Positions 23,918 through 64,000 are shown, counted from the stretch's first letter. The stretch is DNA of 64,000 nucleotides from a virus (IMGVR_UViG_3300037486_000510:1-64000), one strand, 5' to 3'. Program-made: numbers and translations. The notes: generated by a model from the sequence alone, not told the origin.

Positions 23918-25852
23918 CTACACGTGATATACATAAAAAATTTCTCCACATCCCTCGGCATTTTCGTGATCATAACTAAATGCATTCATTGTTCCTACAA
24001 CTCCGTTTCCGGTCCCAGACGTAATCGTTATATTACGTATTATTGCGAAACCAGAAGACCAGATATCAACATCATAATCCACTTGATAAGCATAATCACA
24101 ATCTCCCCAGAACCCTATATATACTGAATTATCTTTTGTAATTCCGGTAACTGAAATATTTGCCCATTCAGAACCGCCATCATTGTACGGACCCGGCTGA
24201 CCCGGTAACATAATATCTGCACATCCTATTTGAGAAGAATCTTTTACTGCGCAACCCCATACCTCTACTTGTCCTTGCGTTACTTCTGTTGGAACACTAA
24301 TTCCAATATTAACATATATGCTAATGTCAACTGTAACTGTTTGTGTGGTTAATCCACTAAATCGTAAATATCCTGAAGAATCAAACTGTACATAAATATC
24401 TGAACTACCGGGTCCGTAGTATCCTCTTTGCCAAATAGTTACACTAGTTTGTGGTGCTTCAGAATTTATATATAACGTGCCCGATCTAGTAGTATTTAAC
24501 GAATTTATATCTAATCTTACATCAAAAGACTGAATAGCTGCAGTAGACGATTCTTCTGGACTACAATGAATCCAATCTATATCTCCAGGGAGAGGTGGAC
24601 ATGGATTTAAATCTGGATCATATATGCCAGTTATATACCACCCAGTAATAGAGTTAGTCGATAAATCTACAGTGTATACAGATGAATCTACTTCATCAAA
24701 TATTCCAGAAGCATCTGCCCATAATACATGCATTATTGGATCTGTAACCCATAAATATGGAGCTTCAGTCGTTGTAAAAGATCTACAAATAGAATTTCGT
24801 ATCCACCCATTTTTATTAAATGACATGTAGTATTTGTATGGAGTAAGCTGTTCTAATCCATTTACAGTTAGTTCAGCATATTCTGCACAATTATGATACA
24901 CAAAAGGTCTAAATGTAGATGAATTAACTGTGACATTTATACTAGATAAATTTGAAACATCTTTGTACAAATATAAATCTGCAATAACATCTGCGTCAGG
25001 AGTAAATTCTAATTTATCCCAAGTTATTGACGCAGAAGTATGTCCTGCAATAGAAGTAAACGATGATGGGTTTCTTTCAAAAACTCCATTAAATAATGAA
25101 TTAGCATTTATTTCATAATTAGTTAATATTGTTCCATCTGCTGTGTTTGTAGTAAATCTTCCGCCAGGATCATCTCTATTAACTTTTAACGAAGAAACAT
25201 CAAATATTAAGTGTGTATCTCTTAAGTTTCCATTATCATCTAAATTACCTATTCTAAATATATTTGCTGAAGCTTCTCTAACAATTGCGATTGATTGTTT
25301 GTCATCTTCGCCAGAAGAATATACTGTAAAAGGATTATAAACGCCAATTAACACATTTGAAAATTCTATTCTAGCATAGTTTTTAGGTTCAGTACCATAT
25401 ATTTTAGATGGTGTACTATAATAATTTATTTCTCCTGTTGAATATACATTATCTATAAGATATTTAGCAACATCATTGTTATTAAAATATCGATTATATT
25501 TAAAAGTGTCTGACATAACTTCAGCAGAAGTAAAATAGCCTGCTGTACTTAGACTTGCGTATTTGTATACAAATTCTCCTGTGCATGGATCTAATATTTC
25601 ATATACACCTCCATTAAGATCAATGAATAAATCTCCTGTGTTATATGATCTACCCTCTGGCAATACTTCTGATGAACCAACAGTAGAAGCACATAATATT
25701 ATATTACCCATAATGGCTGTATTTATTGTAGCTGTTTGAGTTCTTGCATCAAAATCTGTAAAATATATGCCTAAACCTGCTAATCCAGCAGACCCATCGT
25801 CTCCTCGTGTTCCGAATCCTGGTCTTCCTGGTGCATATTGAAATTTATCCAT
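23918..25852 (-). CDS. Virion protein with FN3/BACON-like domains
   Basis: Paralog of 25889..27571 (FQY.PG..G.G..G.DGS.G; YNPFTVYSSG; FRIGN); WIHCSP...RSGTLYINS BACON-like segment. Confidence 0.55.
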   Translation of the reverse strand: MDKFQYAPGRPGFGTRGDDGSAGLAGLGIYFTDFDARTQTATINTAIMGNIILCASTVGSSEVLPEGRSYNTGDLFIDLNGGVYEILDPCTGEFVYKYASLSTAGYFTSAEVMSDTFKYNRYFNNNDVAKYLIDNVYSTGEINYYSTPSKIYGTEPKNYARIEFSNVLIGVYNPFTVYSSGEDDKQSIAIVREASANIFRIGNLDDNGNLRDTHLIFDVSSLKVNRDDPGGRFTTNTADGTILTNYEINANSLFNGVFERNPSSFTSIAGHTSASITWDKLEFTPDADVIADLYLYKDVSNLSSINVTVNSSTFRPFVYHNCAEYAELTVNGLEQLTPYKYYMSFNKNGWIRNSICRSFTTTEAPYLWVTDPIMHVLWADASGIFDEVDSSVYTVDLSTNSITGWYITGIYDPDLNPCPPLPGDIDWIHCSPEESSTAAIQSFDVRLDINSLNTTRSGTLYINSEAPQTSVTIWQRGYYGPGSSDIYVQFDSSGYLRFSGLTTQTVTVDISIYVNIGISVPTEVTQGQVEVWGCAVKDSSQIGCADIMLPGQPGPYNDGGSEWANISVTGITKDNSVYIGFWGDCDYAYQVDYDVDIWSSGFAIIRNITITSGTGNGVVGTMNAFSYDHENAEGCGEIFYVYHV

Positions 25853-25862
25853 GTTAATATCT

Positions 25863-25876
25863 TTTATTTATATATT
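25863..25876 (-). promoter_or_regulatory. Late-promoter-like motif AATATATAAATAAA
   Basis: Contains the T4 late consensus TATAAATA; 10 nt before the 25852 start. Confidence 0.6.
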
Positions 25877-25888: not shown

Positions 25889-27571
25889 TTATTCTGCTAA
25901 ATAAAAACAATCGTCACAATCATTTACTTGATTAACCCCTACGAGTTTAGATCTTGCTCCGTCTAAAGATTTAACTTCGCATGATCCTAATCTATCAGAT
26001 GTCCATGTTCTTTTATCGCAATTAACTGTAAAGCTTCCAGTACCTGTTCTTGGACTCGAAATAGATCCACCATTAGAAATTAAAACCCATGAATCTGAAG
26101 GTATTACATACCATCTGTGTCCGGTTGGAGCAGTTACAGTAATTGTTCGGTATGGATATGCAGGCGAACAAAGTGTATTTAACGGATTTGTGCATACTTG
26201 TGTATGATCAATAGTTATAGTTGGTGCTACATATGCTTGCTGATTAACTGTGACAGTTACTGGCTGAGCTTGTGAAGTTATAGTAATGGTTCCTGATCGT
26301 GCGCCACCTGTATTTGCAGCAACACCTACACTAAATTGTGTAGCAGATATTACAGTAACAGGCGTAATCCATCCGCTATTTACAGTAAGATTCCATCCAG
26401 TGGCAGAGTCAGTCGTTACAGTTACTAAATTAGAACCGTAAATCGTTCCATCCGCTGAAGCGTCCAATGTTAAAGGACTGGCAGATGTTGTAGGCAATGA
26501 TCCAACAGTAGTCGAATTTATTGCAGAAGTTCTCTGCCAGCCATCGGCTACTATATTCATATGATAATAATAAATATCATTTTCTAATAAACCCCTAATT
26601 GTAGCAGTGCCAGTTGTACTAACATCATAAAATATTAATGGATCAAAAGATTCTAGAGTGTCTTTGTAAACATACAAATTTCCTACTGCGGCCGTTGATG
26701 CAGGCGTAAAATCATTTAAATTCCATGAAATTTCAAATGAAGATACATCACCATCAGATACATAAAATGATATGGGGGTTTGCGTAAATATTTCGAAGCC
26801 GTTATATAAAGAATTATTTCCAATTTCTGTATTAGTAAGTATTTCTCCTTCTGTAGTATCTATGCGTATTGGTGTAGAATTCTTTTTTAAAGTTGAAATA
26901 TCAAATGTTAATGATGTATTTCGTATTGAAGTATCATTTCCAATTCTAAAAGTATTGCTATTTATATTTCTAACTATTGAAAACGCTTTATGATCATCAA
27001 TATATCTATATTGTCCCGAAGAATAAACAGTAAATGGATTATAGATCGTATTCATCGGTATATTAGAATATTCTACTCTTGCAAAATTTTTGGGTTTAAT
27101 TCCATAAATTTTTGAGGGATAATCTAAATGTCCAGATCTTTGTAAATTATATACATTATCAATAATGTAGTTAGTTGCGCTTGGATCAGATATATCAAAA
27201 ATATTACGATATCTATCAAATACGCCATCGCCTGCATCAGCAGATGTATCTTGAAAATATGTTACAGTAGTAAATCTTGGAAATGGAGGATCAGTATACG
27301 ATCCTTCTGATGCATCAGTAATTATAGTTATATGTCCTTCATTATCAACAATACTTTCATAATTAATATATCTTCTTCTACCCGGAAGAGGAGTTCCAAT
27401 TAGATCAGTAGAAAATAAAGATTCGTTAGATTGAATTTTATTTGTGATAATAGCTATATCTGCTTCTAAATCATAATCAGTATAGTGCAATCCCATTGCG
27501 TGTATGCCAATAGATCCATCTGCTCCTTTTGCGCCATATCCAATTAAACCCGGAAAATATTGAAAATTCAT
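25889..27571 (-). CDS. Virion protein with two BACON-like domains
   Basis: SGWIT...FSVGVAANTGGARSGTITIT and SDSWV...RLGSCEV segments. Confidence 0.55.
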   Translation of the reverse strand: MNFQYFPGLIGYGAKGADGSIGIHAMGLHYTDYDLEADIAIITNKIQSNESLFSTDLIGTPLPGRRRYINYESIVDNEGHITIITDASEGSYTDPPFPRFTTVTYFQDTSADAGDGVFDRYRNIFDISDPSATNYIIDNVYNLQRSGHLDYPSKIYGIKPKNFARVEYSNIPMNTIYNPFTVYSSGQYRYIDDHKAFSIVRNINSNTFRIGNDTSIRNTSLTFDISTLKKNSTPIRIDTTEGEILTNTEIGNNSLYNGFEIFTQTPISFYVSDGDVSSFEISWNLNDFTPASTAAVGNLYVYKDTLESFDPLIFYDVSTTGTATIRGLLENDIYYYHMNIVADGWQRTSAINSTTVGSLPTTSASPLTLDASADGTIYGSNLVTVTTDSATGWNLTVNSGWITPVTVISATQFSVGVAANTGGARSGTITITSQAQPVTVTVNQQAYVAPTITIDHTQVCTNPLNTLCSPAYPYRTITVTAPTGHRWYVIPSDSWVLISNGGSISSPRTGTGSFTVNCDKRTWTSDRLGSCEVKSLDGARSKLVGVNQVNDCDDCFYLAE

Positions 27572-27594: not shown

Positions 27595-30500
27595 TTATTT
27601 TTCATATAGAGTAATTTTTATAAAATATGAATAATTTCCTGTTTTAGGAATTATTATTTTATAATAATATTCTCCGTTTATTTGTACAGGTTGTCCATTA
27701 AAATTCTGTTTTTCATCAAGTATAAAATCAGAATTATGTGTATAAGCTATCTTGTTCAATGGCACTGATCTTCTTCCTGAAGATGATGTCGTATAGTAAA
27801 AATCTAATTTTATTTTAGGCGCATTAATACCATAATAAGGCAAGACCGTATTTTTAATGTAGTCATTAATTATATTGTCAGCACTAGTTAATCCTGACCA
27901 GTTGCTTAAAAAAGTTAAACTAGAAGTAAATGTGTTTAAAATAGCTTTAGTTAAATTATAATATGCAGTTATTTCTGATGTAGTTTCACTATATCTCAAT
28001 GTAGTTGTATCCCATTTATCAAATACTAGAAAATCAGGAAATTTAGGTAATTTTGATCCAAAAAAAGAAGGTAATTCTACCGGACATTCATATCCATCTG
28101 TTGGCACACCATCTTTAATATAATAATCCCCATCCCATTGTGATTTAAATACGTTAAAATCTTTAATATAAGAAATCGCATTATCTGCGTCAAGATCTGC
28201 TTGAGAAATGTTTGACACTAATTTATTATACCATAATTGACTAATACTGTTATAATTTATTAAATTTGTATTACTCAAGATAAAATCTTGATCAACTATG
28301 TCTATGAATTCTTTTTCTTCATCCGCTTTAAATTCAAATATATTATTAAACTTAGGTTGATACCAACCATTATATGTAGATATATTATTGAACGATTTTG
28401 GAGAATTAACTGTGATAGTCATTAAATTTGCACTTCCAAAATCATAACTAGAATAAATATCATCGTCACGTATAATATAAAACATTACGTTATTATACAT
28501 AACATTATCATAATTGGGAGTTAATAAGTATTTTAAAGTTTCTATGTTGGTTGTGTTACTTATATATAAATTTTCATTAGAATTGTATTTATATCCATAA
28601 TTTATTGAATATTTACTAAATGTATTGCTATTAGGAAAATAACTATATAATGGAGCTTGTGTAAACGTATTATATGTTAACGGCGAATAGAAAAAGTTAT
28701 CAACAATTATATTTGCTCCAAATGCATTATAAATAGAACTAATTCCATTTATGTTTTTATTATATTGCGCGTAAGGTCGTGCAACACTTGAATCGTAGCC
28801 ATAATCTTTTCCGTATATATTTATTAAAAGTTTTGCAAGAGTAGAATTATTAACTATAAATGGTGTTTTTACAAATGAATAATAAGATTGTGAAGGATCT
28901 GCAGATGTTACAAATGCAGAATTTGTAGAATCTAATAAAGATTTGCCAGGTAGATATGAAGAATATCTTGCAGTGTAATTTAATTCATCGTTTCCTTGGT
29001 ACCAAATCATCAAGATTGTTCTTGTATTTTCATTTATAATTACTTCAATTGGATGTTTAGATGTTTTGTTTTTAGAAGGAGTAGAAATAAATGAAAATCT
29101 AAATCGATTATAGTTTTTTAGGTCTATTAGTTGTTTCGCTATGTACTCAAGAGATAATGATAATTTTAATCCCGTAATAGTAACATCTAGAGAATCTTTA
29201 TAATTATTGTAATAAGATATTGAAGAACGCGTTATTGCAGCATCAACATTATAATTTGAATAAATTAATTTTGAAAAATAATCAACATAAGGATACGCAA
29301 ACATAGCATCTTTAAATGATAAATTATTAGATGAATCTACTATATCGTTTATATCATAAAAAATATAATTTTCCCATGCTCTTGTTCCAGGAGTTAAATA
29401 TTTAAATACTGGATAACTAATTTCTTGAGAAAATTGTGATGCGTCAGGTATAAAATTCGATGTCATTCCCGTCTGAAATGATGATCCATTTAATTTAAGC
29501 AATAATGGATTATTTCTACAATCTGTACCTAATCCAACCCACTTTGAAACAGTTGGAACTGTTAATCCATATTTTAATAAGGCGCTTGAATCATAATACG
29601 AACCAATATTTTCTACGTTTGCGTCTGAATATCCAGTGTATGCAAATGATGTGTCTAATACTGCATAAGTTATTATAGTATCTGTGTTAGTCTCAAAATC
29701 TATACTTGAATCAAATGTATTAAAAAGTGTAGAAACATCGTATGTATTAGGAGTTCCATCTTTAGTAAAAATTCCTGTCCCTGATTTAATAATATAAGAA
29801 CCTTGAATATCTAATGTATAATTTGAACATGCATCTAGTGAAATTTGATATGTATCAACATCATCTTCTCTATTATATGAATATTCGCTTTGATAATTTA
29901 AATGTGTTGAATCATAAACTGCATTATCTATATCTTTTACGGGATTTATTCCTAATAATGAAATATTAAGAGGAGATATGCTATAAGCGTTAAATTTATT
30001 TACTACAGTGTTAATATCTTCTGCAGTCATTATTAACATTTTATCACCATTTTGAATAGGTTCTTTAACATATAAATAACTATTATTAGACACATCTAAA
30101 TATAATATTTTTTTGTACCAAAGATCTTTTCCTTGATATAGAGTTGGTGTTTCAAATTTATCAAGTATATTTTGCAATGAATCAAAATAATAAAAATTAT
30201 TATTTCCTCGATTGATAAAATTTAACATTATACTTTGACGATTTCCAAAAAATTCAAAATCTATTGGTCCAAATGATGCATCATAAGCAATAGTTTCAAA
30301 ATCAGTTAAAGACGGAGTAAATCTTCCAAAAAAGGCTATATCTGACGCTCTTGCACTATTATTAAAATTAGAAGATGAATCGTTAATATTATTTAATGTA
30401 GTAGCCATTATTCTTTGAAACATCCATTCTTCTGTTGGATCAGCATCGTCAGTAAGAATAATAGATGCCCAATTGCTTCCGCTATTTCCTGATTTAAAAC

Positions 30501-34649: not shown

Positions 34650-36368
34650 TTATAGTATACTTCCATTGGATGTAAAAGTGAACATTACGCTAGTATCATA
34701 TAATAATCTTAACATTGTTCCACTTGTATCAAATGTCCAATTTCCTAATTTTAATTTAGGCGCATTGTAACTTAAAATTATATTATTGCTAGTATCTACT
34801 ATTGAATTTTCAAGTATAAGATCTTTAACTTTTACGCTGACATCCATTTGAACAAGATACGTGGGTCTGCTATTAAAGAAACCTATTTTTCCGTTATACA
34901 TATAAATAGATGAATCTACGATAGGATCTGCGCCATCTGCAAACATAGGAATTGCATTTTCTGTACCAGTAATATCTCGAGTTATGTCATTTATTTGATA
35001 TTGAAGTTCATCAACATGATTTAACATGTCAGTATAATTTGATGTTAAATCTAAATATTGCTGCGTAATATAATTAATTGTTCCTGTATGTCTATTTAAA
35101 ATAGCAAGGTTTTTAGATAATCCATCAAATACTTCTGTAAAATCTCCAAGTTGTTCTTGCACTGATGTTGATTCGTCCATTATTGTAGCTTCTGTATCAT
35201 CTAACATATAATCAGACTTAATATTCAGCCTAAATGAATATGATGTGCCAAATCCGTCAGTAGTACTTTGTAATTTACTAATTGATGGTATTATAATTTG
35301 ATTAAGAGGAAAATCTTGAGTATTTCCTGCTGCATAATCTAAGAATAATATACCTAATAAATTAGTTGCTAAAATTTCGTCTAATGCTTTATTATAAACT
35401 GAATAATAAAGAAGTATTGCATTAAAATCATAATTATCATTTAATACATATTTTGGCTCAACTGCTAAACTATCAAATGTTAATGCAGCGTCTCCTAAAA
35501 TAGTTTTTAAATTGTCAAGATCAAATTCAATAGACATACAGTCTACTCTTGAACGTCTAAGAGGATATGTAATAGATATATCTTCATAATAGGGACCAGA
35601 TGGAATATATGCAGAATCATCTGTAATATAGTAATTTGGAGAAACATAATCATAAAAGGCTCTAATATCTAAACCATCTGGATGAGCCTGTGTATAGCTT
35701 TCTCTTCCTAAAATATTTGTATTTCCATTCATAAGAAGAGGAATTGCCATTAAATGATGATAATTATCATCTTCTACTTGTTTAAAATAAACTGGAGTTT
35801 GTCCAAAGGATGTAGGAACTAATACATATGTTTCATTATATGTTCCAAATGTATCTGTACGTACAGAACCTGCGCTAATTTGTCCAATGCCTTTAACAAC
35901 TGAACTATATCCTACTGAATTATCCAGAAGATGCTCTTCTCTCCAGTATCCTCCTGCAGAAATATCGGGCGCCCAACGAATAGCTCCAGTTTCTTTTAAC
36001 CATTTCCAAAATACTCTTTCAGAAACAGTAGTATTTAAAGCAGGATTATAACTATCTAAAGCCAATAAATTAGTTTCAAGGTTAAGTGCATAATTTTGAA
36101 AACTTTCTGCAACAACACGTCTTCCATCTATAATATTAGCGCCTAAATATTGATATGCACCAGGAATTGCATAAACGTTAAATTTATTTATTTCTGCTGC
36201 AGAGGGTACGTCTATGGCTGGAATATTTAACAATGCGTAATGAGACATTTTAACAATATTGTTTCTCTCGTTTATGTTTAGCCCAATATCTTCTAGCGCA
36301 GAAGTAAACGTATATATCGTCCCACCTTGGGCTCGCATTCTTTTTACAAATGGTGTTATAGTTGCCAT
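34650..36368 (-). CDS. Putative virion structural protein
   Basis: 572 aa; C-terminal tail-fibre-like segment KIGFFNSRP. Confidence 0.5.
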   Translation of the reverse strand: MATITPFVKRMRAQGGTIYTFTSALEDIGLNINERNNIVKMSHYALLNIPAIDVPSAAEINKFNVYAIPGAYQYLGANIIDGRRVVAESFQNYALNLETNLLALDSYNPALNTTVSERVFWKWLKETGAIRWAPDISAGGYWREEHLLDNSVGYSSVVKGIGQISAGSVRTDTFGTYNETYVLVPTSFGQTPVYFKQVEDDNYHHLMAIPLLMNGNTNILGRESYTQAHPDGLDIRAFYDYVSPNYYITDDSAYIPSGPYYEDISITYPLRRSRVDCMSIEFDLDNLKTILGDAALTFDSLAVEPKYVLNDNYDFNAILLYYSVYNKALDEILATNLLGILFLDYAAGNTQDFPLNQIIIPSISKLQSTTDGFGTSYSFRLNIKSDYMLDDTEATIMDESTSVQEQLGDFTEVFDGLSKNLAILNRHTGTINYITQQYLDLTSNYTDMLNHVDELQYQINDITRDITGTENAIPMFADGADPIVDSSIYMYNGKIGFFNSRPTYLVQMDVSVKVKDLILENSIVDTSNNIILSYNAPKLKLGNWTFDTSGTMLRLLYDTSVMFTFTSNGSIL

Positions 36369-51871: not shown

Positions 51872-51872
51872 A

Positions 51873-52950: not shown

Positions 52951-52968
52951 AAATAAAAAATAAAAGAA

Positions 52969-55127: not shown

Positions 55128-55175
55128 AATTATTTTTAAAAAATAGCTACTTCTGTATATAACAGATTAAAAAAT

Positions 55176-55200
55176 AAGGGAGAATGTCTCCCTTTCGTTT
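55176..55200 (+). terminator. Rho-independent terminator
   Basis: AAGGGAGA-ATG-TCTCCCTT then TCGTTT. Confidence 0.65.
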
Positions 55201-55207
55201 TATAGAA

Positions 55208-55223
55208 GATATATAAAATAAAA
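55208..55223 (+). promoter_or_regulatory. Late-promoter-like motif GATATATAAAATAAAA
   Basis: Just before the 55229 start. Confidence 0.6.
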
Positions 55224-55228
55224 AGTAA

Positions 55229-55591: not shown

Positions 55592-55601
55592 TAAAAAATA
55601 A

Positions 55602-57497
55602 ATGAAAATATTTGATACAACTCGCATTAGATTCTCTGAATTATATTATGATGCAATAGAATTTATAAAAACCAGTTATAGTGAATTGGGCCAATATTTT
55701 ACAATGGCATCTCCTATGGGGCAATTACTTCAGGTGATGTTGCAATATGGAAGAATGATTCTATATTATGTAGAAGATTCTATAACTGAATTAAATATAA
55801 AAACTGCATCTAGACCACAAAGTATAAAAGGTTTAGCTACTTTAACTGGTCATAGTCCATCTAGAGCTATTGCAGCAAGAGGAACAATATCTATATCTCA
55901 TAATGGCACAAAATTACCAACATATTCAAATATTTTAACTATTCCAAATTATACTAAGATTTCAAGTAATGAAAATGGCTTAACTTATACAGTTGTATTA
56001 CCGGGTGAAGAAGCTCATTTAGATTTGACGAGTCCAGTCAATTCTTTAGATTTAAATATAATTCAGGGAACAGTTGAATTTCAACAAGCAACTGGTACCG
56101 GTGATCCACTTCAATCGTTTAATTTTCAAAACAAAAAAGGTTCAACAATAGATAATTATTTTGTAAGTGTATATGTTGATGGAAAAAAATGGCAAACAGT
56201 AGATTCTATTTTAGATATGCCATTTAATCAAGAAGCAGTAATGATAAAAACCGGCCAAACAGGCGGAATAGATATTTTCTTTGGAAACGGTTATAATGGA
56301 GCTGTTCCTCGACTAGGTTCAATAATATTATTAGAATATCTTATTACTGACGGAGCTGCAGGAAATTTAAATACAATGGCAAGTAATACGGCAAATTCTT
56401 GGAATTTTACCACAAAAGGAATAGCTCTTAATGGAGAGGAAGTAGATATTAACAAATACGTTAATGTATACGTTAAAAATTCAATAATGTTTGGAGCAAT
56501 GGAAGAACCGTTATATTTAACTAGATTATTGACTCCAAGAGTATCAAGGAGTTTTGTTCTAGCAAATGAAAATAATTATATTTATTTTCTTAAAAAATTA
56601 AACATGTTTACTCTTATAGATGCTATACCAGGATTTGAAACATTTGAAGATCAATATATGCTAGATAAATACAATCAAGCAAAAACAACTTATGAAAATA
56701 TAAATGAAGAATATAGAAATTTAATTTCTACGTATGGTGTAAATTCTGGTTTAGCAACTTCTAAAAAGGCTGAATTAGATCGTGCTCAACAACAATTATA
56801 TTATTATCAAGAAAGACTTGCTGAGCAAAAATTAGATGATAATACAGTATATTTATATTTAGTTCCTGATATTTCTAAAAGATTACCTTCATCTGAAAAT
56901 TATTATACGTGTAGTACTGCTGTATTTGCTTTATCTTTAGGAGAAAAAACAGCAATTTTGGATTTAATTGAACAAAGTGGACAAAGAATTTTAACAGTTG
57001 ATAATGTAATATTGGATTTAAAACATCCAAGATTTACTTTAAATATGTCATTAATATTATGGGAAGGAACTACTTATGATACAGTTAGACAAAGTATTAT
57101 AAATAAAACATCTTCATATTTTACACAAACTACTAGAAGAGATAGAATTCCTGTATCTGATTTAATTAAAATAATTGAAAGTATTGATGGTGTAGATTCT
57201 GTAAATGTTTGGTTTGACGCAGACGCTGAAAATTTAAAAATTTATAGAACTCATTATGGAATAGATGATTACGGAGATATAATTCTTGAAAGATATATAA
57301 AAGATGCATTCGGTAAAGAAGTTCCTATTAGAGACATTTATCCTTTAATTCGTGGAGGATTTGAAAATGAATTAGGAGTTTATTATGAAGATAGTTTAAC
57401 AAAAAATAAATTATCAACTTTAAATATTCAAGTAAGAGGGTACACTTCTAAAAACTTAAATTCAGAAACAAACATAACAATTATGAATAATTTATAA
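55602..57497 (+). CDS. Baseplate wedge gp6-like protein
   Basis: TASRPQSI..LA.L.GH.P.R..AARG, YLITDGAAGN, size and position after gp25-like. Confidence 0.7.
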   Translation: MKIFDTTRIRFSELYYDAIEFIKTSYSELGQYFTMASPMGQLLQVMLQYGRMILYYVEDSITELNIKTASRPQSIKGLATLTGHSPSRAIAARGTISISHNGTKLPTYSNILTIPNYTKISSNENGLTYTVVLPGEEAHLDLTSPVNSLDLNIIQGTVEFQQATGTGDPLQSFNFQNKKGSTIDNYFVSVYVDGKKWQTVDSILDMPFNQEAVMIKTGQTGGIDIFFGNGYNGAVPRLGSIILLEYLITDGAAGNLNTMASNTANSWNFTTKGIALNGEEVDINKYVNVYVKNSIMFGAMEEPLYLTRLLTPRVSRSFVLANENNYIYFLKKLNMFTLIDAIPGFETFEDQYMLDKYNQAKTTYENINEEYRNLISTYGVNSGLATSKKAELDRAQQQLYYYQERLAEQKLDDNTVYLYLVPDISKRLPSSENYYTCSTAVFALSLGEKTAILDLIEQSGQRILTVDNVILDLKHPRFTLNMSLILWEGTTYDTVRQSIINKTSSYFTQTTRRDRIPVSDLIKIIESIDGVDSVNVWFDADAENLKIYRTHYGIDDYGDIILERYIKDAFGKEVPIRDIYPLIRGGFENELGVYYEDSLTKNKLSTLNIQVRGYTSKNLNSETNITIMNNL

Positions 57498-57767: not shown

Positions 57768-60700
57768 ATGAATATAGCTAACTGGATAATATTTGACAAA
57801 AAAGGGAGTCCATTAAATTGGCAGTCAGATCCTTATATTTTACTGCAATTTACAGATGCATCTGGCGTAGGCGCTGAAGGATTTTTAATCTCAGATCCAA
57901 GTGGTTATATTTCAGGCGCCGAAATTACTAACAGTGGATATTCATATACTATAACTGATACTAGTATATCGTATACATATTTATTAGGTAGTGGCACAGC
58001 AATATCTCCTGCAGATGTTACAATTACAGCCAAAGATATTTCAATTTTTAATCCTGAAGGTTCTACTGTACAAGGTATAGACAGCTTAGCAATTTCTTTA
58101 GATACGAGTGGATTTATTTATCCATCGGTTACGTATGCTGGCGCTATATTTCTTGAACCTGTTTCACAGGGGCTGGTAGAAACAGAACATCTTTTTATAC
58201 TTGAACAAATAGATTCATCAGTTTATATTAGACCACAAGATACAACTCATTCTATACTTATATTTAGAATGATGGGAGATGATAATGAAATTTCATTTTT
58301 TGAAGTAGATGATGATCAAGTAGAAATTACATGGGTTGATGAATTAATATTTGATACAGCTACGTATGTTTCTAATACGCCTATAACGCTTAACATAGGA
58401 TTTAGATCAGAATATGAAGGTATCTTTGAGAGAACTATACGAGTTTATCATCAAATTGGAGATGTTCTTTATACATTAGCTGACATTGTAGTAAATGCTG
58501 AAGCTATTGGAGAAGATGAAAGATTTAGAACTTTAATTAATAATTTTGGAGCGCCAGATCCAGTAGATTTTCCTTCTCTTTTTAAAGAAGTAGATATTAA
58601 TGAAGATCTCCCTGATTGGAAAGTTATTAATCCAAAATCAAAACATATGATTTTGGAATATGATCAAATTGTACCATATATTGGTACATATAAAGCACTT
58701 ATAAATGCAATAAAATGGTTAGGCTACGATGATGTATATATACGTGAATGGTTTAGAGATGTAAAAGAACATAGAAAATTATCGTTTATCGTTCCTTATG
58801 ATGCGCATGATAGATTACAAACTATTTTACAATTTAGTGCTGAAGCTCGAACACATCTTAAAAAACTAAACCAATTATCTTTATTCTATTGTTTAACAAG
58901 AGAAACTGGGCAAATAGATGATTGGGGTACGCCGTTGACAGAAAATTGCTATACTTATAATATTAAAGAAATATTTATTAAATTATGTGCTTTAAAAAAA
59001 TGGTTAGAAAGAAATATTATAGGCGTAAATTGTCGAATAATTGACATTACAGGAGAAGGAATATATTTTGAAAGAATTCAGAATTTAATTTATGCTACAG
59101 ATAATATAGGTTTCAATTATAATGTTTCTCAAACTTTAACGCCTTATGCGTTAGAAGAAAATTCTGAATTAATACATGGTGATGCAAGTTTAAATCTTAC
59201 ATTTTTAGAATTATCAAGAACACGCATTTTAGATTTACCATATCGTTTTATTGATATGGCAGAATATGCATGGAATCCATCAACTCCAACAGTTTATTAT
59301 TCTCTTGCTGATCCTGCTTATTTAGCTGATCCTAGTAGTTTTCTATTAGTGGGAGCAACTTTTCAATATCCATTTATCAACATTAATGAAATAATGTGGA
59401 AATTATCTGTTGAAAAAGATTTTGCAGGAGTTATTGGAAACACATTAGTTACAAAACCGTTATTTGTTCTTGAAAATGATATTAGATATTATAATATACT
59501 TGATGTGTCTTCAATATTTTTTGATACATCTACTCATTTAACAATATATCTTGAAAAAGCATATCTAAGAGATCCAAGTATTGATGTATGGACAGATTCG
59601 ATAGCATATTCAATTTATCCAAATCCATATATGTATTTAGATGCATCATATTCAAAAACAATAGTCTTATCAGGAGAATATACAATAACATCAGGAAAAG
59701 GAACAATTTATCAGTTAGATGCATCAGAAACATACAATTTATTAGGCGTTGATACTTATTCGTTTACTGTTGATACAAGCGTAGTTATATTAACTGATAC
59801 TTCTACGATAATATTGACCCCCGATGTATATGATTATGTAATGGAAACATCTACGGGAACCATTATATCATTTGACGACTATGTATCGTTTAATCCCGCT
59901 ATTTCTAGTTTACTTCAATATGCATATAATGATAATTATCATATTCCGCTTCTTAGTTTTAAATATTATGATACTATAGATAAAAATGCAACAAGAATAT
60001 CTTTAGGAGATAAATTATATCATCTAGATATTCTTGATGGTAAAATAGAGATGAATGCTGGAATGCTAACTCCTGCTACTTCTTCTGATAATCTTATAAT
60101 GTATATAAATTGGAATTATGATACGAGTTTAGAAGAACAAATGATTACTGTAAATGCTGTTTATAATTCTCCTCGTATGAAATTATATCAAGTAGATCCT
60201 GCTGCTTATTATGCGGGAGATCCATCTGGATTAACGGGGGGAAATGCTGCAAATATAATGACTATAGATAACAGTATTTATCGAATGCACGTAAATCATA
60301 TAGGAAAATATAATGTAGAATTATTTGCTTGGGACTCATATAACACTATGTTTTATAATCCGACAAAAGAAGATTATTTAGTATGGATTAAATATCCAAC
60401 AATTTATGCGTTAACTGAAAGTGCTACTTTATTGAATAAAGATGCTAGTATTTTTATGTCAATGAATGATGTCAGTATTTTAATATCAAATAATAAATAT
60501 CCTATTTTTGATAAAATCATACCGTTACAGGGATTAACTATACAATATAATGAAGGTGGAAAACCGTATGTTAATGTTCCTTCAATTACATATTTTCAAG
60601 ATGTTCCAGAATCTGGCTCTCTTAATAGATTCTATAATTTAACTGAAAGAGTTTTGACAATTTCTGGAGTTACTGTTACAATTGATCCAGATTTTCAAAA

Positions 60701-61583
60701 ATTTATTTCAGGTGATGATGTTAAATTAGTAAAATTCGACAAGCAAAGAAATACCATAACACAAGAAGTTGCAGCTCATATAAATACTGCTGTTGGAAAT
60801 ACCCTTACGTTATCTTCGGGTACTACAGTAACAGTAGATGCTTCAAGCGAAGTTTATATTTTAAATGATACTTATAGAGCTGTAACAAATGCATCAAATA
60901 ACAGTATATCAACTTCTATCATAGATATTGTAGATGCTTCATTTGCAACTACTCAGATGATTGGAATAATTGTTAATGATGGATGCACTGGATATACTTG
61001 GGGCGCTTCTTATAGAATTCAAAGTGTTATTGGAAATACTCATACACTAGATGCCAATATTCCTGAATATTTTATAAATAATCTTGGAAGATTTACAATT
61101 CAAGCGAAATATGCATTTTCAACATATTCAAATATGTTATTTGAAACTGATAGCGCAACTGAAGTTGATAATAACTTCAAAATATATTTAAAAAATTCGT
61201 ATTGTCAAGAAAAATATTTAGATAATACATTTATATATGCTAATATTTTATTTGATCATGATAGAGTTAATTTAGATTGGTATGATACTTCATGTGGATT
61301 AGATATATCAACCTTTTATTATTATAGCAGCCCTATATCAATTGATACTAGTACTATAGTAATATTAAGAGCATTATATGATCCAAGTACCTATCTTTTA
61401 AATCAAAAAAATATATGGACTGTAAGATACCATGATACTAATAAAGTTTTATTTAAAGTATTTAATAGTGATGTAGCCTATGTATTTTCAGAAGCTGGAA
61501 CATATAACGTAGAATGTATTTCTTATGATAGTTATGGAAATGCAATTACTAAATTATATGAAGGCTTTGTAAAAGTCGAGTAA
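57768..61583 (+). CDS. Large baseplate wedge protein (gp7-like core with appended domains)
   Basis: IGTYKALINAIKWLGY wedge motif; position after gp6-like. Confidence 0.55.
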   Translation: MNIANWIIFDKKGSPLNWQSDPYILLQFTDASGVGAEGFLISDPSGYISGAEITNSGYSYTITDTSISYTYLLGSGTAISPADVTITAKDISIFNPEGSTVQGIDSLAISLDTSGFIYPSVTYAGAIFLEPVSQGLVETEHLFILEQIDSSVYIRPQDTTHSILIFRMMGDDNEISFFEVDDDQVEITWVDELIFDTATYVSNTPITLNIGFRSEYEGIFERTIRVYHQIGDVLYTLADIVVNAEAIGEDERFRTLINNFGAPDPVDFPSLFKEVDINEDLPDWKVINPKSKHMILEYDQIVPYIGTYKALINAIKWLGYDDVYIREWFRDVKEHRKLSFIVPYDAHDRLQTILQFSAEARTHLKKLNQLSLFYCLTRETGQIDDWGTPLTENCYTYNIKEIFIKLCALKKWLERNIIGVNCRIIDITGEGIYFERIQNLIYATDNIGFNYNVSQTLTPYALEENSELIHGDASLNLTFLELSRTRILDLPYRFIDMAEYAWNPSTPTVYYSLADPAYLADPSSFLLVGATFQYPFININEIMWKLSVEKDFAGVIGNTLVTKPLFVLENDIRYYNILDVSSIFFDTSTHLTIYLEKAYLRDPSIDVWTDSIAYSIYPNPYMYLDASYSKTIVLSGEYTITSGKGTIYQLDASETYNLLGVDTYSFTVDTSVVILTDTSTIILTPDVYDYVMETSTGTIISFDDYVSFNPAISSLLQYAYNDNYHIPLLSFKYYDTIDKNATRISLGDKLYHLDILDGKIEMNAGMLTPATSSDNLIMYINWNYDTSLEEQMITVNAVYNSPRMKLYQVDPAAYYAGDPSGLTGGNAANIMTIDNSIYRMHVNHIGKYNVELFAWDSYNTMFYNPTKEDYLVWIKYPTIYALTESATLLNKDASIFMSMNDVSILISNNKYPIFDKIIPLQGLTIQYNEGGKPYVNVPSITYFQDVPESGSLNRFYNLTERVLTISGVTVTIDPDFQKFISGDDVKLVKFDKQRNTITQEVAAHINTAVGNTLTLSSGTTVTVDASSEVYILNDTYRAVTNASNNSISTSIIDIVDASFATTQMIGIIVNDGCTGYTWGASYRIQSVIGNTHTLDANIPEYFINNLGRFTIQAKYAFSTYSNMLFETDSATEVDNNFKIYLKNSYCQEKYLDNTFIYANILFDHDRVNLDWYDTSCGLDISTFYYYSSPISIDTSTIVILRALYDPSTYLLNQKNIWTVRYHDTNKVLFKVFNSDVAYVFSEAGTYNVECISYDSYGNAITKLYEGFVKVE

Positions 61584-61585
61584 TC

Positions 61586-64000
61586 ATGGATAATAAATTA
61601 ATATTAAGACCTTCTTCTGGCAGTACAAGAAAATTACAATTAAAAAATTTATGGACTGTTTCTCGTAAATTAATATTGCGAGCTGTAAATTATTTGTTCG
61701 GTTCGCCTCCAACCGTTATAACAACAGATCCGGTTACAAATATTTCTTCGTATAGTGCTACAGGGGGTGGTAATGTAACTGATGATGGTGGATGGCCTTA
61801 TACTGAAAGAGGCATATGCTGGGATACATCTATAAATCCTACTATATTATATTATGTACAAATGGATACTTCGTTTGGCGAAGGAACATATACGTGTGTA
61901 ATGAATAATTTAGAGCCTTCAACCCTTTATTATATTAGAGCATTAGCAGCTAATACTCGTGGTTTAACTTATGGACAAGATGTTTCATTTTACACGTTAC
62001 CAGTAACGGGTGGAGATTCAGCACTATATGTTGGAATAGGAACTATTTATGGTACTACAGATACTACATCAATTGTTGTCGCTTATGTTACTTATACAGG
62101 CAGTATTACGCCAGTTTATAGAGGAGCGTGTTGGTCTTCTTCTACTACAATGCCTACCGTAACTGATAGTTCTATACGAGATACAAGTACCGGCGCTGGA
62201 ACGTATTATAATTATTTATCTGGATTAACGCCAGATACAACTTATTATGTAAGAGCCTTTGCATATAATAACGCGCAATTAGTTTATAGTTATAATCAAC
62301 CTTTTACTACAGCTGCAGCGTATCCGCAGACAACTGCTCCAGGCGTATCTACATTGTCTCCGTATAATGTTTCTACCGGCAGCGCAACTTTGGGTGGCTA
62401 TGTTTATTCAGAAGGCAACGCTCCGCCTGTTTATCGTGGAGTTTGTTATGGTCTTTATAGTTCTCCTACTATTAATGATGCTTCGGCTCTGGATTACGCA
62501 ACTGGATTATCTAATTATTTCATTACCGTATCAGGATTAAATCCTTCTACATATTATTATACTCGAGCATTTGCTTGGAATTCTATAGGATTATCTTATG
62601 GAAGTAACTATACATTTACAACATCAACTTCAACTGGTTCTATATCTTTACCAAGTGTAGTCGTGGTAGATGTAACTGATATTTCTACATCTTCTGCTAA
62701 ATTTACTGGAAACGTAACTAGTACTGGCGGTGCAACTACATATAGAGGAGCGTGTTGGTCTGCCGAACACGGCTATCCTACTATAGCCGATTCTTCTATA
62801 CAATCTGGTAGTACTGGATCGGGATATTACGATGTTTCTATAACAGGATTAGACTGTTCAACAACATATGCTGTTAGAGCATTTGCTTGGAATTCAGCAG
62901 GAATAATATACGGATCTAAACCCCCGGCCTCTATTTATTCATTCAACACTCCAGCATGTTCTCTTATTACGTCTGCGCCAGTTGTTGAAACTGTTAGTGT
63001 TGTAAATATAGGATATACTGAAGCATCAGTAAATGGAAATGTAACACACGATGGAAGTATTGCTACAGTGTATAAAGGCATTTGTTGGGCAACACATGTA
63101 GATCCTAATAGATCAACAGACAATCATACCGTTACATCTGGGGGAGAAGGCGCTTTTACTCATAAGGCAATTTATTTAAGTCCAGGCACACTTTATCATA
63201 CTAGAGCTTACGCATATAATACAGTTGGAACTAGTTACGGAATAGATATTTCATTTAATACATTAACATCTTCATACACTGCGCCAACTGTAATAACTTC
63301 TCCGGCTACAAATGTACTTGCAACATCTGCTACTACAGGAGGAAATGTAACACACGATGGTTACGTTACACTTACATATAGAGGAATTTGTATAAGTACA
63401 AGTGCAAATCCTACTGTATTAGATACTTCTATACGACATGCAGAAACAGGAGAAGGTGTATATGCTTGCCAATTTTCTAATTTAACATCCAATACGACAT
63501 ATTATTCTCGAGCATTTGCTTATAATTCAGAAGGCATATCCTATGGCGCAGATGCATCATTTTATACTTTGCTTACATCTCCCGAAATAAAATCAATACA
63601 CGAAGGATATTACCAAGATACTGCAACATATTATATCCCAACGAACGCATCAGCTGGTGATTTTATCATAGGAGTTTTAACAACAAAAAAAGACGCTCAA
63701 TGGTTAAGTCTGCATAACAACACAACCGCTAATTTTAATATAGCGTTGAGACAAACTATGTCTAATCCAATAATATTATATGATACGCCGATGCGTTCTA
63801 TTTTATATTATGGAATATCTACCGGAATAAATGATAATTTAACTATTAAATCAACAATGTATGATGAAGACGGCACTGCATTTTCTAGCGATGCAAGAAG
63901 CTTAACATATGTTATAAAAAATCACAATGTAAATTCAGTTGACCCGACTGATCATCAATTTAATTGGAACTGCACTGCAGGTTACGGAATTTTTACTCCT
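61586..64000 (+). CDS. FN3-repeat virion protein, truncated at window end (not in ORF track)
   Basis: Manual translation from ATG 61586 open for 805 codons; six repeats of (R/K)G.C(W/Y/I)...Y..RA(F/L/Y)A.N..(G).YG...F.T. Confidence 0.85.
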   Translation, partial: MDNKLILRPSSGSTRKLQLKNLWTVSRKLILRAVNYLFGSPPTVITTDPVTNISSYSATGGGNVTDDGGWPYTERGICWDTSINPTILYYVQMDTSFGEGTYTCVMNNLEPSTLYYIRALAANTRGLTYGQDVSFYTLPVTGGDSALYVGIGTIYGTTDTTSIVVAYVTYTGSITPVYRGACWSSSTTMPTVTDSSIRDTSTGAGTYYNYLSGLTPDTTYYVRAFAYNNAQLVYSYNQPFTTAAAYPQTTAPGVSTLSPYNVSTGSATLGGYVYSEGNAPPVYRGVCYGLYSSPTINDASALDYATGLSNYFITVSGLNPSTYYYTRAFAWNSIGLSYGSNYTFTTSTSTGSISLPSVVVVDVTDISTSSAKFTGNVTSTGGATTYRGACWSAEHGYPTIADSSIQSGSTGSGYYDVSITGLDCSTTYAVRAFAWNSAGIIYGSKPPASIYSFNTPACSLITSAPVVETVSVVNIGYTEASVNGNVTHDGSIATVYKGICWATHVDPNRSTDNHTVTSGGEGAFTHKAIYLSPGTLYHTRAYAYNTVGTSYGIDISFNTLTSSYTAPTVITSPATNVLATSATTGGNVTHDGYVTLTYRGICISTSANPTVLDTSIRHAETGEGVYACQFSNLTSNTTYYSRAFAYNSEGISYGADASFYTLLTSPEIKSIHEGYYQDTATYYIPTNASAGDFIIGVLTTKKDAQWLSLHNNTTANFNIALRQTMSNPIILYDTPMRSILYYGISTGINDNLTIKSTMYDEDGTAFSSDARSLTYVIKNHNVNSVDPTDHQFNWNCTAGYGIFTP

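What the first reader, a model, noticed from the sequence alone, without database searches (positions are those of the whole stretch)
23918..64000. D-x-S motif strongly enriched only in outer virion proteins: candidate phage-specific modification sequon
Hand counts of D-x-S (x mostly A/T/V/S/I/P/G): 26 in the 1271-aa baseplate protein, about 22 in the 1575-aa protein, 22 in the LamG x5 protein, about 40 in the 2176-aa protein, 14 in the 805-aa FN3 fragment and 4 in the 109-aa ORF at 50077. Controls: 2 in UvsW (511 aa), 2 in primase, 1 in the gp6-like protein (631 aa), 0 in the S1-like protein. Within the 1271-aa protein the conserved wedge core (~300 aa, 25 Asp) has none, while its appended domains are dense with them. 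The motif cuts across unrelated folds (LamG, FN3, BACON, beta-helix). Ser is encoded by both TCN and AGY, so this is not a DNA motif. Established: Bacteroidota O-glycosylate exported proteins at D-(S/T)-hydrophobic, and some phages glycosylate virions with their own glycosyltransferases. D-x-S differs from the host sequon, and virions assemble in the cytoplasm. Inference: a phage-encoded enzyme modifies (for example glycosylates) surface serines, giving a glycan-coated particle.
Basis: partly seen in the sequence, partly recalled or inferred. Interest (0 to 1): 0.8.

Follow-up and report, generated by a model that had tools for sequence, protein, structure and literature searches.

The report
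Asp-x-Ser tag on megaphage tail fibres
The tail-fibre and outer baseplate proteins of this uncultured giant phage and its whole clade carry the three-residue motif Asp-x-Ser about three times more often than chance, in short loops between beta-strands; it looks like a tag that something reads, perhaps a sugar-adding enzyme, but no chemistry has been done.

Summary
All six hand counts are exact. In the 12 outer virion proteins D-x-S occurs 180 times against 70 expected (z 13). It is the top outlier of 1,600 residue-pair tests; the next reaches z 4.9. D-x-T, N-x-S, E-x-S and S-x-D are not enriched. Shuffling within 15-60-residue blocks leaves the excess intact. Both Ser codon families are used.

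The excess belongs to a lineage, not to a fold.
- All 120 listed homologues of the baseplate protein have O/E of at least 2.16.
- In a complete 405-kb relative, 263 ordinary ORFs give O/E 0.98 and 19 mostly giant ORFs give 3.1.
- Four orthologous outer proteins give 2.4x and 3.0x in the clade, 1.4x in Lak-A1 and 0.94x in LR756500.
- LamG proteins outside the clade give 1.23x.

The sites lie at strand-loop-strand junctions.

The glycosylation reading is only partly supported. A soluble 1136-aa multi-glycosyltransferase operon lies just past the window, but the closest complete relative lacks it. No glycosyltransferase family I tested tracks the motif. The scan has noted D-x-S on another genome of this clade, and other fibre motifs in other phages.

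The parts
23918..25852 (-). 644-aa fibre-like protein with a weak BACON match; D-x-S 10 vs 4.7 expected
25889..27571 (-). 560-aa fibre-like protein, paralogue of the 644-aa one at its N-terminus; D-x-S 10 vs 4.1
27595..32322 (-). 1575-aa fibre protein; D-x-S 22 vs 12.4. Orthologues: G001 18/9.7, Lak-A1 20/13.3, LR756500 5/7.9
32332..34629 (-). 765-aa fibre protein (phrog_29329); D-x-S 7 vs 3.4
34650..36368 (-). 572-aa fibre protein; D-x-S 10 vs 3.4. Its G001 orthologue (1341 aa) has 42 vs 9.8
36413..39982 (-). 1189-aa protein with five Laminin_G_3 domains; D-x-S 22 vs 8.3. The sites are scattered over many loop positions of the fold
39996..46526 (-). 2176-aa protein with right-handed beta-helix and BACON domains; D-x-S 40 vs 13.2, D-x-T 8. 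Its N-terminus looks like a signal peptide
46534..49224 (-). 896-aa protein with two Laminin_G_3 domains; D-x-S 12 vs 5.8
49239..49994 (-). 251-aa single-LamG protein; D-x-S 3 vs 2.2, not enriched on its own
50077..50406 (-). 109-aa ORF with 4 D-x-S vs 0.7; 61% identical over 71 aa to part of a 1751-aa G001 protein
55602..57497 (+). Negative control inside the module: gp6-like baseplate wedge subunit, D-x-S 1 vs 2.6. In 20 non-redundant orthologues the total is 20 vs 49.3
57768..61583 (+). 1271-aa outer baseplate protein; D-x-S 26 vs 8.1. All 120 listed homologues have O/E of at least 2.16
61586..64000 (+). FN3-repeat fibre protein, 935 aa in full, ending at 64393 of the contig; D-x-S 14 vs 4.3 in the window part and 15 vs 4.9 in the whole protein

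Best explanation
D-x-S is a lineage-specific tag kept by selection on the exposed tail-fibre and outer-baseplate proteins of a large clade of Bacteroidota-type megaphages; it is weaker in Lak phages. More fully the motif reads hydrophobic-D-[V/A/T/S/P/I/G/C]-S-[I/G/T].

Shown: the tag sits where one beta-strand ends and the next begins. Asp follows the end of a strand and Ser starts, or just precedes, the next strand.

Inferred: the tag is read by a trans-acting factor made during infection. The most likely reader is a cytoplasmic enzyme that modifies the Ser hydroxyl, with O-glycosylation the leading candidate. That would give modified fibres and baseplate, but not a modified capsid. The enzyme has not been identified.
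For: Specificity: D-x-S ranks first of 1,600 residue-pair tests (z 13.1). D-x-T, N-x-S, E-x-S and S-x-D are flat or depleted. Over 120 homologues D-x-S is 3371 vs 1031, D-x-T 747 vs 841, N-x-S 740 vs 972 and S-x-D 858 vs 1031. Needing Asp (not Asn or Glu), Ser (not Thr) and one direction fits a chemical reader better than a generic turn.

Not the fold: the four closest LamG x5 homologues have O/E 3.2-3.8, and 100 more distant ones pool to 1.23. Four orthologous outer proteins give 65/27.2 in G000, 92/30.5 in G001, 46/33.3 in Lak-A1 and 24/25.6 in LR756500. The 8 LamG copies in the window carry 29 sites spread over 19 alignment columns, so the sites were gained independently.

Not base composition: G001 has 28.8% GC, Lak-A1 25.9% and LR756500 24.3%. 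pT24 (28.7% GC) gives 306 vs 306.6 and crAss001 gives 121 vs 108.3.

Confined to one protein class: in G001, 263 ORFs give 279 vs 286 and 19 ORFs give 385 vs 124. The MCP has 1 vs 1.2.

Conserved: 16 of 77 D-x-S columns are kept in at least 10 of 13 orthologues at 57-61% identity. 7 of 15 conserved motif Ser columns use both Ser codon families.

Placement: 14 sites fall in model blocks with pLDDT of at least 60. In 10 of them Asp is at, or within one residue after, the end of a strand. 7 are tight strand-DxS-strand connectors.

Precedent: Aah/TibC glycosylate Ser in a strand-loop-strand motif (passages read in PMC3835316).

Means: a soluble 1136-aa multi-GT, a methyltransferase and an epimerase/dehydratase lie inside the baseplate module of the same contig. 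G001 carries a roughly 24-kb sugar/GT island and further GTs.

Possible avoidance elsewhere: the inner-baseplate-region ORFs give 2 vs 8.2.
Against: No modification has been measured.

No enzyme co-varies with the motif.
- The contig's GT operon is missing at the same junction in G001, L014 and L015, and it has no tblastn hit in G001 at E <= 1e-3.
- G001's GTs have no hit in the 77 kb of G000.
- GT2 is absent from Lak-A1 and Lak-B6 but present in LR756500.
- GT25 also occurs in LR756504 and LR756501, whose baseplate-region ORFs show no excess.
- G001's GT2 pair belongs to a family found in 59 IMG/VR loci. Most are unrelated phages of 33-51% GC, and the large ORFs beside them pool to 234 vs 257.9.
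- No GT9 (Aah/TibC-like) gene is in G001.

Phage GT and sugar genes can instead serve DNA hypermodification. I saw this only in a search-listing abstract and in a reference entry in PMC12619734.

Most of the excess lies in conserved columns (124 of 272 occurrences in columns kept in at least 8 of 10 sequences). Recently gained sites are only modestly above other pairs: 0.66 of expectation against a mean of 0.42, sd 0.13. A structural role would give the same pattern.

The middle residue is often beta-branched and the neighbours hydrophobic, which also fits simple strand-edge packing.
Confidence: 0.4

Rival explanations
1. The motif is purely structural. D-x-S would be this lineage's preferred way to end one beta-strand and start the next: an Asp cap on the backbone plus a Ser hydroxyl, with x packed into the core. 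It would be kept by purifying selection and nothing would be attached.
For: The sites sit at strand-loop-strand junctions. Much of the excess lies in conserved columns (124 of 272 occurrences in columns kept in at least 8 of 10 sequences). Residue x is small or beta-branched, and positions -1 and +1 are hydrophobic. No enzyme tracks the motif.
Against: Orthologous proteins in LR756500 do without it (24 vs 25.6). LamG domains outside the clade do too (1.23x), so the folds do not need it. An Asx or ST turn would also favour Asn at position i and Thr at i+2, yet N-x-S and D-x-T are depleted. The same bias arose in LamG, FN3, beta-helix and BACON-bearing proteins and in proteins of unknown fold, which points to one common outside cause.
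Confidence: 0.3
2. The motif is a non-covalent docking or binding tag. It could be read by a fibre-specific chaperone or assembly factor (for example the Hsp20 encoded beside the fibre genes) or by a decoration protein. Alternatively, arrays of Asp/Ser pairs could bind cations or host surface glycans.
For: The motif is lineage-specific and confined to one protein class. An Hsp20 gene lies next to the fibre genes on this contig, and tblastn finds it in G001 and in six related loci, some of them near-identical. This reading needs no modifying enzyme, which matches the failed enzyme associations.
Against: No known chaperone reads such a tripeptide (recalled, not searched). Metal sites rarely tell Ser from Thr. 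The MIDAS-type D-x-S-x-S is not enriched (13 vs 17.5). blastp found no Hsp20 homologue in the Lak-A1 ORF set.
Confidence: 0.15
3. The host's general Bacteroidota O-glycosylation system modifies the fibres after export to the periplasm.
For: BACON domains and kinship with Lak phages suggest a Bacteroidota host. One protein, the 2176-aa one, has a signal-peptide-like N-terminus. The scan has noted exported fibres rich in the host sequon in other Bacteroidota phages (unchecked).
Against: The host sequon D-(S/T)-(AILVMT) is not enriched: 46 vs 52.1 overall and 7 vs 9.9 in the 2176-aa protein. 11 of 12 outer proteins have no signal-like N-terminus. The host system acts only on exported proteins, and on the residue next to Asp (PMC8729774, passages).
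Confidence: 0.03
4. The excess is an artefact of amino-acid composition, internal repeats or a DNA-level motif.
For: The proteins are rich in Asp, Ser and Thr and contain repeated domains.
Against: Whole-protein and block shuffles give z of about 13-14. The sequence contexts are diverse. The LamG copies carry the motif at 19 different columns. Both Ser codon families are used, and they switch between orthologues at conserved sites.
Confidence: 0.02

Closest known systems
Bacteroidota general protein O-glycosylation, sequon D-(S/T)-(A/I/L/V/M/T) (PMC8729774, passages read)
   Same: A three-residue acceptor motif that starts with Asp and has a hydroxyl amino acid as the presumed acceptor; the probable host phylum is the same.
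   Different: Here Ser is two residues after Asp, not next to it, and Thr is excluded. The host motif itself is not enriched (46 vs 52.1). The host system works only beyond the cytoplasm, whereas 11 of 12 of these proteins have no export signal.
Aah/TibC heptosyltransferases that modify AIDA-I, TibA and Ag43 (PMC3835316, passages read; it cites Charbonneau 2012, not read)
   Same: Many Ser residues are glycosylated on beta-rich surface adhesins at a strand-loop-strand motif. That the modification happens in the cytoplasm is my recollection and comes from no call.
   Different: [quoted passage not shown] Here there is a strict D-x-S with Ser at the end of the loop. No GT9-type gene was found in the complete relative.
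Virion glycosylation of mycobacteriophages by phage-encoded glycosyltransferases (Freeman et al. 2023; known to me only through the passage and reference in PMC12619734)
   Same: Phage-encoded GTs that put glycans on virion proteins.
   Different: There the glycans sit at the C-termini of the capsid and tail-tube subunits. Here the capsid protein has no excess (1 vs 1.2), and the candidate sites are internal loops of fibres and baseplate.
Asx-turn and ST-turn motifs of protein structure (recalled, no call)
   Same: Asp at position i can cap the backbone NH of residue i+2, and the motif occurs at strand ends and in tight loops.
   Different: Those motifs accept Asn as well as Asp and Thr as well as Ser, and they occur in all proteins. 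Here only D...S is enriched, only in one class of proteins and only in one phage lineage.
Giant-virus fibre and capsid glycosylation with virus-encoded sugar pathways (Mimivirus, chloroviruses; recalled, no call)
   Same: A very large virus carries its own nucleotide-sugar pathway and several GTs, including multi-domain soluble GTs.
   Different: Those are eukaryotic viruses. No D-x-S sequon is known there, and here the sugar genes differ between two members of the same clade.

Membership tests
Bacteroidota general O-glycosylation substrates | Sequon D-(S/T)-(A/I/L/V/M/T) present or enriched | tested here: not met
   46 observed vs 52.1 expected in the 12 outer proteins
Bacteroidota general O-glycosylation substrates | Protein exported beyond the cytoplasm (signal peptide) | tested here: not met
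   Reading the N-termini by eye, 1 of 12 (the 2176-aa protein) has a signal-like hydrophobic start. No signal-peptide predictor was available.
Aah/TibC (BAHT) type cytoplasmic O-glycosylation | Acceptor in a strand-loop-strand structural motif | tested here: met
   Of 14 sites in model blocks with pLDDT of at least 60, 10 have Asp at or just after a strand end, and 7 are tight strand-DxS-strand connectors
Aah/TibC (BAHT) type cytoplasmic O-glycosylation | GT9-like heptosyltransferase encoded with the substrate | tested here: not met
   No PF01075 match in the complete relative G001. Pfam was run on 53 of the contig's 57 ORFs of at least 100 aa: 37 of 41 ORFs inside the window outside the fibre cluster were not all covered (17 of them were not scanned), but none of those scanned is GT9
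Aah/TibC (BAHT) type cytoplasmic O-glycosylation | No sequence consensus; Ser or Thr accepted | tested here: not met
   There is a strict D-x-S, and D-x-T is depleted
Phage-encoded virion glycosylation (mycobacteriophage type) | Glycosyltransferase genes in the phage genome | tested here: met
   A 1136-aa multi-GT lies at contig 70960-74370. G001 has GT2, GT10-like and GT25 genes and a sugar pathway
Phage-encoded virion glycosylation (mycobacteriophage type) | The GT co-occurs with the modified substrate across relatives | tested here: not met
   The GT operon is absent from G001, L014 and L015. The GT2, GT25 and G001 GT2-pair distributions do not follow the motif
Phage-encoded virion glycosylation (mycobacteriophage type) | Glycan shown on virion proteins | not testable with these tools
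   This needs mass spectrometry or glycan staining of particles or of recombinant proteins
Asx-turn / ST-turn structural motif | Asn interchangeable with Asp, and Thr with Ser | tested here: not met
   N-x-S is 73 vs 83.5 and D-x-T 54 vs 68.1. Over 120 homologues they are 740 vs 972 and 747 vs 841
Asx-turn / ST-turn structural motif | Found generally in proteins of the same fold | tested here: not met
   LamG proteins outside the clade give 1.23x. Orthologues in LR756500 give 0.94x
MIDAS metal site (D-x-S-x-S) | A second Ser two residues after the first | tested here: not met
   D-x-S-x-S is 13 vs 17.5 expected given the D-x-S count

The most novel reading that the evidence does not exclude
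D-x-S is the acceptor sequon of an undescribed, Ser-specific, cytoplasmic protein-modification system shared by a very large clade of environmental and gut Bacteroidota megaphages, Lak phages included. The system decorates fibres and baseplate at strand-loop-strand junctions. Its writer belongs to none of the glycosyltransferase families tested here, so it would be a new enzyme family or a new chemistry. Other huge-phage clades may use their own tags; the scan has noted DS(A/D), GSP and DGY motifs elsewhere (unchecked).
Probability: 0.3. Interest if true: 0.85.

Novelty: new variant of a known kind. Interest (0 to 1): 0.62.

Why it matters
Tail fibres and the baseplate decide which bacteria a phage can attack, and they are what the environment and host defences see first.

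If one in four Asp residues in these proteins belongs to a modification tag, then these giant phages, the gut Lak phages among them, would carry chemically decorated host-recognition organs that sequence-based annotation misses. The tag would also define a new, easily searched sequon.

Even if nothing is attached, a direction-specific tripeptide held at threefold excess in 120 of 120 homologues, yet absent from orthologues in a sister megaphage, is a clean and testable case of lineage-specific selection on protein surfaces.

The motif also offers a simple sequence mark for picking out exposed virion proteins in this clade.

Tried and rejected
1. DNA-level motif: rejected. Both Ser codon families are used, and they switch at 7 of 15 conserved motif columns. 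The same switching occurs at 9 of 21 other conserved Ser columns, so that test does not set the motif apart.

2. Low GC forcing Asp/Ser turns: rejected. LR756500 (24.3% GC), pT24 (28.7%) and four 634-735-kb phages (26-32% in the stretches read) show no excess.

3. Fold explanation: rejected for LamG and for four orthologue sets (97). I did not run the same control for FN3, BACON or beta-helix homologues.

4. Host sequon: not enriched. MIDAS D-x-S-x-S: not enriched.

5. Enzyme association.
- GT2 runs the wrong way round.
- GT25 is present in G001, Lak-A1 and Lak-B6 and absent from LR756500. It is also present in LR756504 and LR756501, which show no excess near the baseplate, and absent from LR745206, LR756502 and pT24. 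That is inconclusive.
- The G001 GT2 (260 aa) and GT10-like proteins have no Lak hit.
- The G000 multi-GT has only one weak GT2-domain hit in GenBank phages, in LR756500.
- The G001 GT2 pair family is widespread in unrelated phages.
- No GT9 was found.
- Of 282 G001 ORFs, 39 hit Lak-A1 but not LR756500. The annotated ones are nucleotide-metabolism enzymes, a papain-like protease, a phosphoesterase and GT25. With three lineages this profile has little power.

6. 'Young site' test: gains seen in at most 2 of 10 orthologues are only 1.9 sd above other pairs, so there is no clear sign of ongoing gain.

7. The AlphaFold model of the baseplate C-terminal 802 residues was poor (mean pLDDT 50.7). Only 8 of its 20 sites lie in blocks with pLDDT of at least 60. 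The tools return no coordinates, so solvent exposure could not be computed.

8. Literature: searches found no paper on D-x-S in phage proteins. The 'Asp-X-Ser' and 'DXS motif' listing (22 papers, 15 listed, titles and abstract starts seen) holds nothing on phages. I found nothing in print, but only this library was searched, and supplements were not consulted.

9. The sequencing-run look-up only told me that the source is a sediment metagenome.

10. PHROGs named only the gp6-like wedge subunit, an adaptor-like match and one family of unknown function among 10 proteins.

Full report
WHAT THE WINDOW IS. The window is 28% GC. It is part of a 77,286-base contig that IMG/VR's CheckV estimate puts at 19% complete, and it comes from a sediment metagenome.

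It encodes T4-like replication proteins: a UvsW-like helicase and gp32. It also encodes a baseplate and fibre module: a gp6-like wedge subunit and proteins with Laminin_G_3, beta-helix, BACON and FN3 domains.

Its nearest named relatives are the Lak megaphages of Prevotella, at 26-33% identity for the baseplate protein and 44% for gp6. Much closer relatives are many uncultured contigs with 64-78% identity in gp6. One of them is a complete 405,016-base genome with terminal repeats, which I call G001.

THE OBSERVATION. Pooled over the 12 fibre and outer-baseplate proteins, D-x-S occurs 180 times against 70.0 expected from each protein's own composition (z 13.1). I ran the same test on all 400 residue pairs at gaps of 0-3. 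D-x-S ranks first of 1,600, and the runner-up reaches z 4.9.
- D-x-T is 54 vs 68.1, N-x-S 73 vs 83.5, E-x-S 46 vs 37.2 and S-x-D 60 vs 70.0. None is enriched.
- Shuffling residues only within blocks of 15, 30 or 60 residues keeps local composition. It gives 71-73 (maximum 100 in 1,000 shuffles) against 181 observed.
- 181 of 741 Asp residues lie in the motif, and Ser is encoded by both TCN and AGY codons.
- The other ORFs of the window show nothing: 24 vs 27.7 in 29 ORFs. The seven ORFs of the inner-baseplate region are low, at 2 vs 8.2 (P 0.012).

THE MOTIF IN FULL. I pooled 531 sites from 22 proteins of this contig and G001.
- The middle residue is V, A, C, P, S, T, I or G. K, M, Q, D, H, Y and F are almost excluded (0-0.2x).
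- The residue before Asp is often L, F, Y, H, R or P.
- The residue after Ser is often I, G, T or Q, and the next is L, Y or N.

WHERE IT SITS. Two AlphaFold models were made. One covers LamG domain 5 of the 1189-aa protein (mean pLDDT 74.8). The other covers the C-terminal 802 residues of the baseplate protein (mean pLDDT 50.7, with two confident beta regions).

14 sites fall in blocks with pLDDT of at least 60. In 10 of them Asp is the last residue of a strand or lies within one residue after it. In 7, D-x-S is the whole tight connection to the next strand. The tools give no coordinates, so exposure could not be measured.

IT IS A PROPERTY OF A LINEAGE, NOT OF A FOLD.
(a) All 120 listed homologues of the baseplate protein (57-72% identity in the wedge core; 265 found in all) have O/E of at least 2.16, with a median of 3.27. 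Pooled they give 3371 vs 1031.
(b) In G001, 263 ORFs give 279 vs 286 (O/E 0.98). 19 ORFs, mostly giants of 1,200-5,500 aa, give 385 vs 124. The major capsid protein has 1 vs 1.2.
(c) For the LamG x5 protein, the four closest homologues have O/E 3.2-3.8, and 100 more distant LamG proteins pool to 1162 vs 944, or 1.23.
(d) The eight LamG copies in the window carry 29 sites at 19 different alignment columns, and at most 4 of the 8 copies share a column. The sites were therefore gained independently within one fold.
(e) Four sets of orthologous outer proteins give 65/27.2 in this contig, 92/30.5 in G001, 46/33.3 in Lak-A1 and 24/25.6 in LR756500.
(f) In Lak-A1 and Lak-B6, D-x-S is still the top-ranked pair in the proteins of at least 900 aa near the baseplate: 48 vs 26.7 and 49 vs 24.2. 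Across the whole Lak-A1 genome, ORFs of at least 800 aa give 269 vs 190 and the rest give 508 vs 514.
(g) No excess appears in LR756500 (422 vs 440), pT24 (306 vs 306.6) or crAss001 (121 vs 108.3). Nor does it appear in the baseplate regions of four 634-735-kb phages, where the pooled counts are 30/24.8, 38/29.8, 9/8.4 and 35/37.3. These genomes are just as AT-rich, so base composition is not the cause.

HOW THE SITES EVOLVE. In 13 orthologues (57-61% identical) there are 77 D-x-S columns. 16 are kept in at least 10 of 13 sequences and 29 are singletons. After removing near-duplicates (10 sequences), the count is 272 vs 83.5. 124 of those occurrences lie in columns conserved in at least 8 of 10 sequences. 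Occurrences seen in at most two sequences amount to 0.66 of expectation, against 0.42 (sd 0.13) for 168 other pairs. Most of the excess is therefore old and held by purifying selection, with some turnover. That pattern fits both a sequon and a structural role.

THE ENZYME QUESTION. Pfam found no glycosyltransferase in the window ORFs that I scanned.

Between a 1178-aa protein and the gp5-like hub gene lie three genes:
- an epimerase/dehydratase (contig 68941-69864);
- a methyltransferase (69861-70979);
- a 1136-aa protein with three GT2 stretches, a DXD sugar-binding region and Glyco_transf_7C (70960-74370).
The 1136-aa protein has no membrane segment. Its nearest solved relative is the K4 chondroitin polymerase (E 2e-9).

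G001 carries a roughly 24-kb island between its gp24-like and capsid genes. The island holds an aminotransferase, an NDP-hexose 2,3-dehydratase, a C-methyltransferase, a GDP-mannose dehydratase, FkbM-type methyltransferases, a radical-SAM protein, and GT10-like and GT25 genes. G001 also has a GT2 pair 5 kb from a D-x-S-rich fibre cluster and a processive GT2. The means for glycosylation therefore exist.

But nothing ties them to the motif.
- The contig's operon is missing at the same junction in G001, L014 and L015. It has no hit in G001, and it lies beside a homing-endonuclease gene, so it looks like a mobile island.
- GT2 is absent from both Lak genomes and present in LR756500.
- GT25 is in all three motif-positive complete genomes, but also in two motif-negative ones.
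- G001's GT2 pair belongs to a family found in 59 IMG/VR loci. Only five of them (four distinct contigs, one fetched twice) are low-GC loci sharing 21 or more G001 genes, so most are unrelated phages, and the neighbouring large ORFs pool to 234 vs 257.9.
- There is no GT9.
- Phage GTs can also serve DNA hypermodification. I saw this only in a search-listing abstract and a reference entry.

WHAT IT MOST LIKELY IS. Five facts are shown: the excess, its specificity, its restriction to outer virion proteins, its restriction to a lineage, and its place at strand-loop-strand junctions.

The rest is inferred. The motif needs Asp (not Asn or Glu), Ser (not Thr) and one direction. It was gained in unrelated folds, and orthologues in a sister phage do without it. 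So something made by this lineage probably reads it. I rate a Ser-directed covalent modification, with glycosylation first, at 0.4. I rate a purely structural lineage habit at 0.3, a non-covalent docking or binding tag at 0.15, host periplasmic glycosylation at 0.03 and artefact at 0.02.

COMPARISON WITH WHAT IS KNOWN. The host phylum's sequon is D-(S/T)-(AILVMT), and it acts only on exported proteins (PMC8729774, passages). That motif is not enriched here (46 vs 52.1). [quoted passage not shown] Mycobacteriophage glycans sit on capsid and tail-tube C-termini (passage in PMC12619734). I found no paper describing D-x-S in phage proteins.

EARLIER NOTES OF THIS SCAN (unchecked AI notes). That agrees with my clade-wide count. 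Other notes describe different short motifs (DS-A/D, GSP, DGY) on fibres of other huge phages. I did not test those.

VERDICT. The glycosylation reading is plausible but unproven, and it is weakened by the failure of every enzyme association I could test.

Noticed in passing
window 39996-46526 (-): The 2176-aa beta-helix/BACON protein begins with a short basic stretch followed by a long hydrophobic run that looks like a Sec signal peptide. The other 11 outer proteins have no such start. The host O-glycosylation sequon is not enriched in it (7 vs 9.9).
   Followed up: partly
contig 68941-75113 (beyond the window; locus L069 4941-11113): An operon of an epimerase/dehydratase, a methyltransferase and a soluble 1136-aa multi-glycosyltransferase lies beside a NUMOD3 endonuclease gene, inserted between a 1178-aa protein and the gp5-like hub gene. 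The insertion is absent at this junction in G001, L014 and L015, so it looks like a mobile accessory island.
   Followed up: yes
G001 about 280,000-304,000 (loci L062-L063): A roughly 24-kb island of deoxy-amino-sugar synthesis, methyltransferase, radical-SAM and GT10-like/GT25 genes lies between the gp24-like vertex gene (278804-279730) and the major capsid gene (304803-306575). Its target (DNA, host surface or virion) is unknown.
   Followed up: partly
window 50545-57497 and gp6-like orthologues in L005-L041: D-x-S is under-represented in the inner-baseplate-region ORFs (2 vs 8.2, P 0.012) and in gp6-like proteins (20 vs 49.3 in 20 non-redundant orthologues). This may be avoidance of the motif; the orthologues are not independent samples.
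   Followed up: partly
window 23918-25852 and 25889-27571 (-): The 644-aa and 560-aa fibre-like proteins share a Gly-rich N-terminal stretch of about 30 residues that includes a D-G-S. It is probably a common attachment adaptor.
   Followed up: no
contig 64537-65022 (+), locus L069 537-1022: A phage-encoded Hsp20 small heat-shock protein lies directly after the FN3 fibre gene. tblastn finds it in G001 and in six related loci (L007, L014, L015, L028, L038, L041).
   Followed up: partly
G001, whole genome: Residue pairs Q-x-x-Q, G-x-Q, Q-G and G-x-x-G are enormously over-represented across the proteome (for example 735 vs 263), which points to many collagen-like G-x-Q repeat proteins. One 150-aa ORF at 390898-391350 matches the Pfam Collagen family.
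   Followed up: no
protein P0216: A 1226-aa homologue of the baseplate protein (59% identical in the wedge core) on a 160,925-base contig is filed at NCBI under a 'Candidatus Nanoarchaeia archaeon' MAG. It is probably a megaphage contig binned by mistake.
   Followed up: no
window 19531-20370 and 22351-23097 (+); G001 378073-378876: A multi-copy family that joins a C2H2 zinc finger to DUF7487 is scattered through this contig, G001 and Lak-A1. Many G001 ORFs hit the same Lak ORF at 461335-462396.
   Followed up: no
Lak-A1 MK250016, whole record (L072-L099): Reading TAG as Gln raises the ORFs of at least 250 aa in a 42.7-kb stretch from 6 to 19. This fits the known stop-codon recoding of Lak phages. 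The window's own clade reads as standard code.
   Followed up: partly
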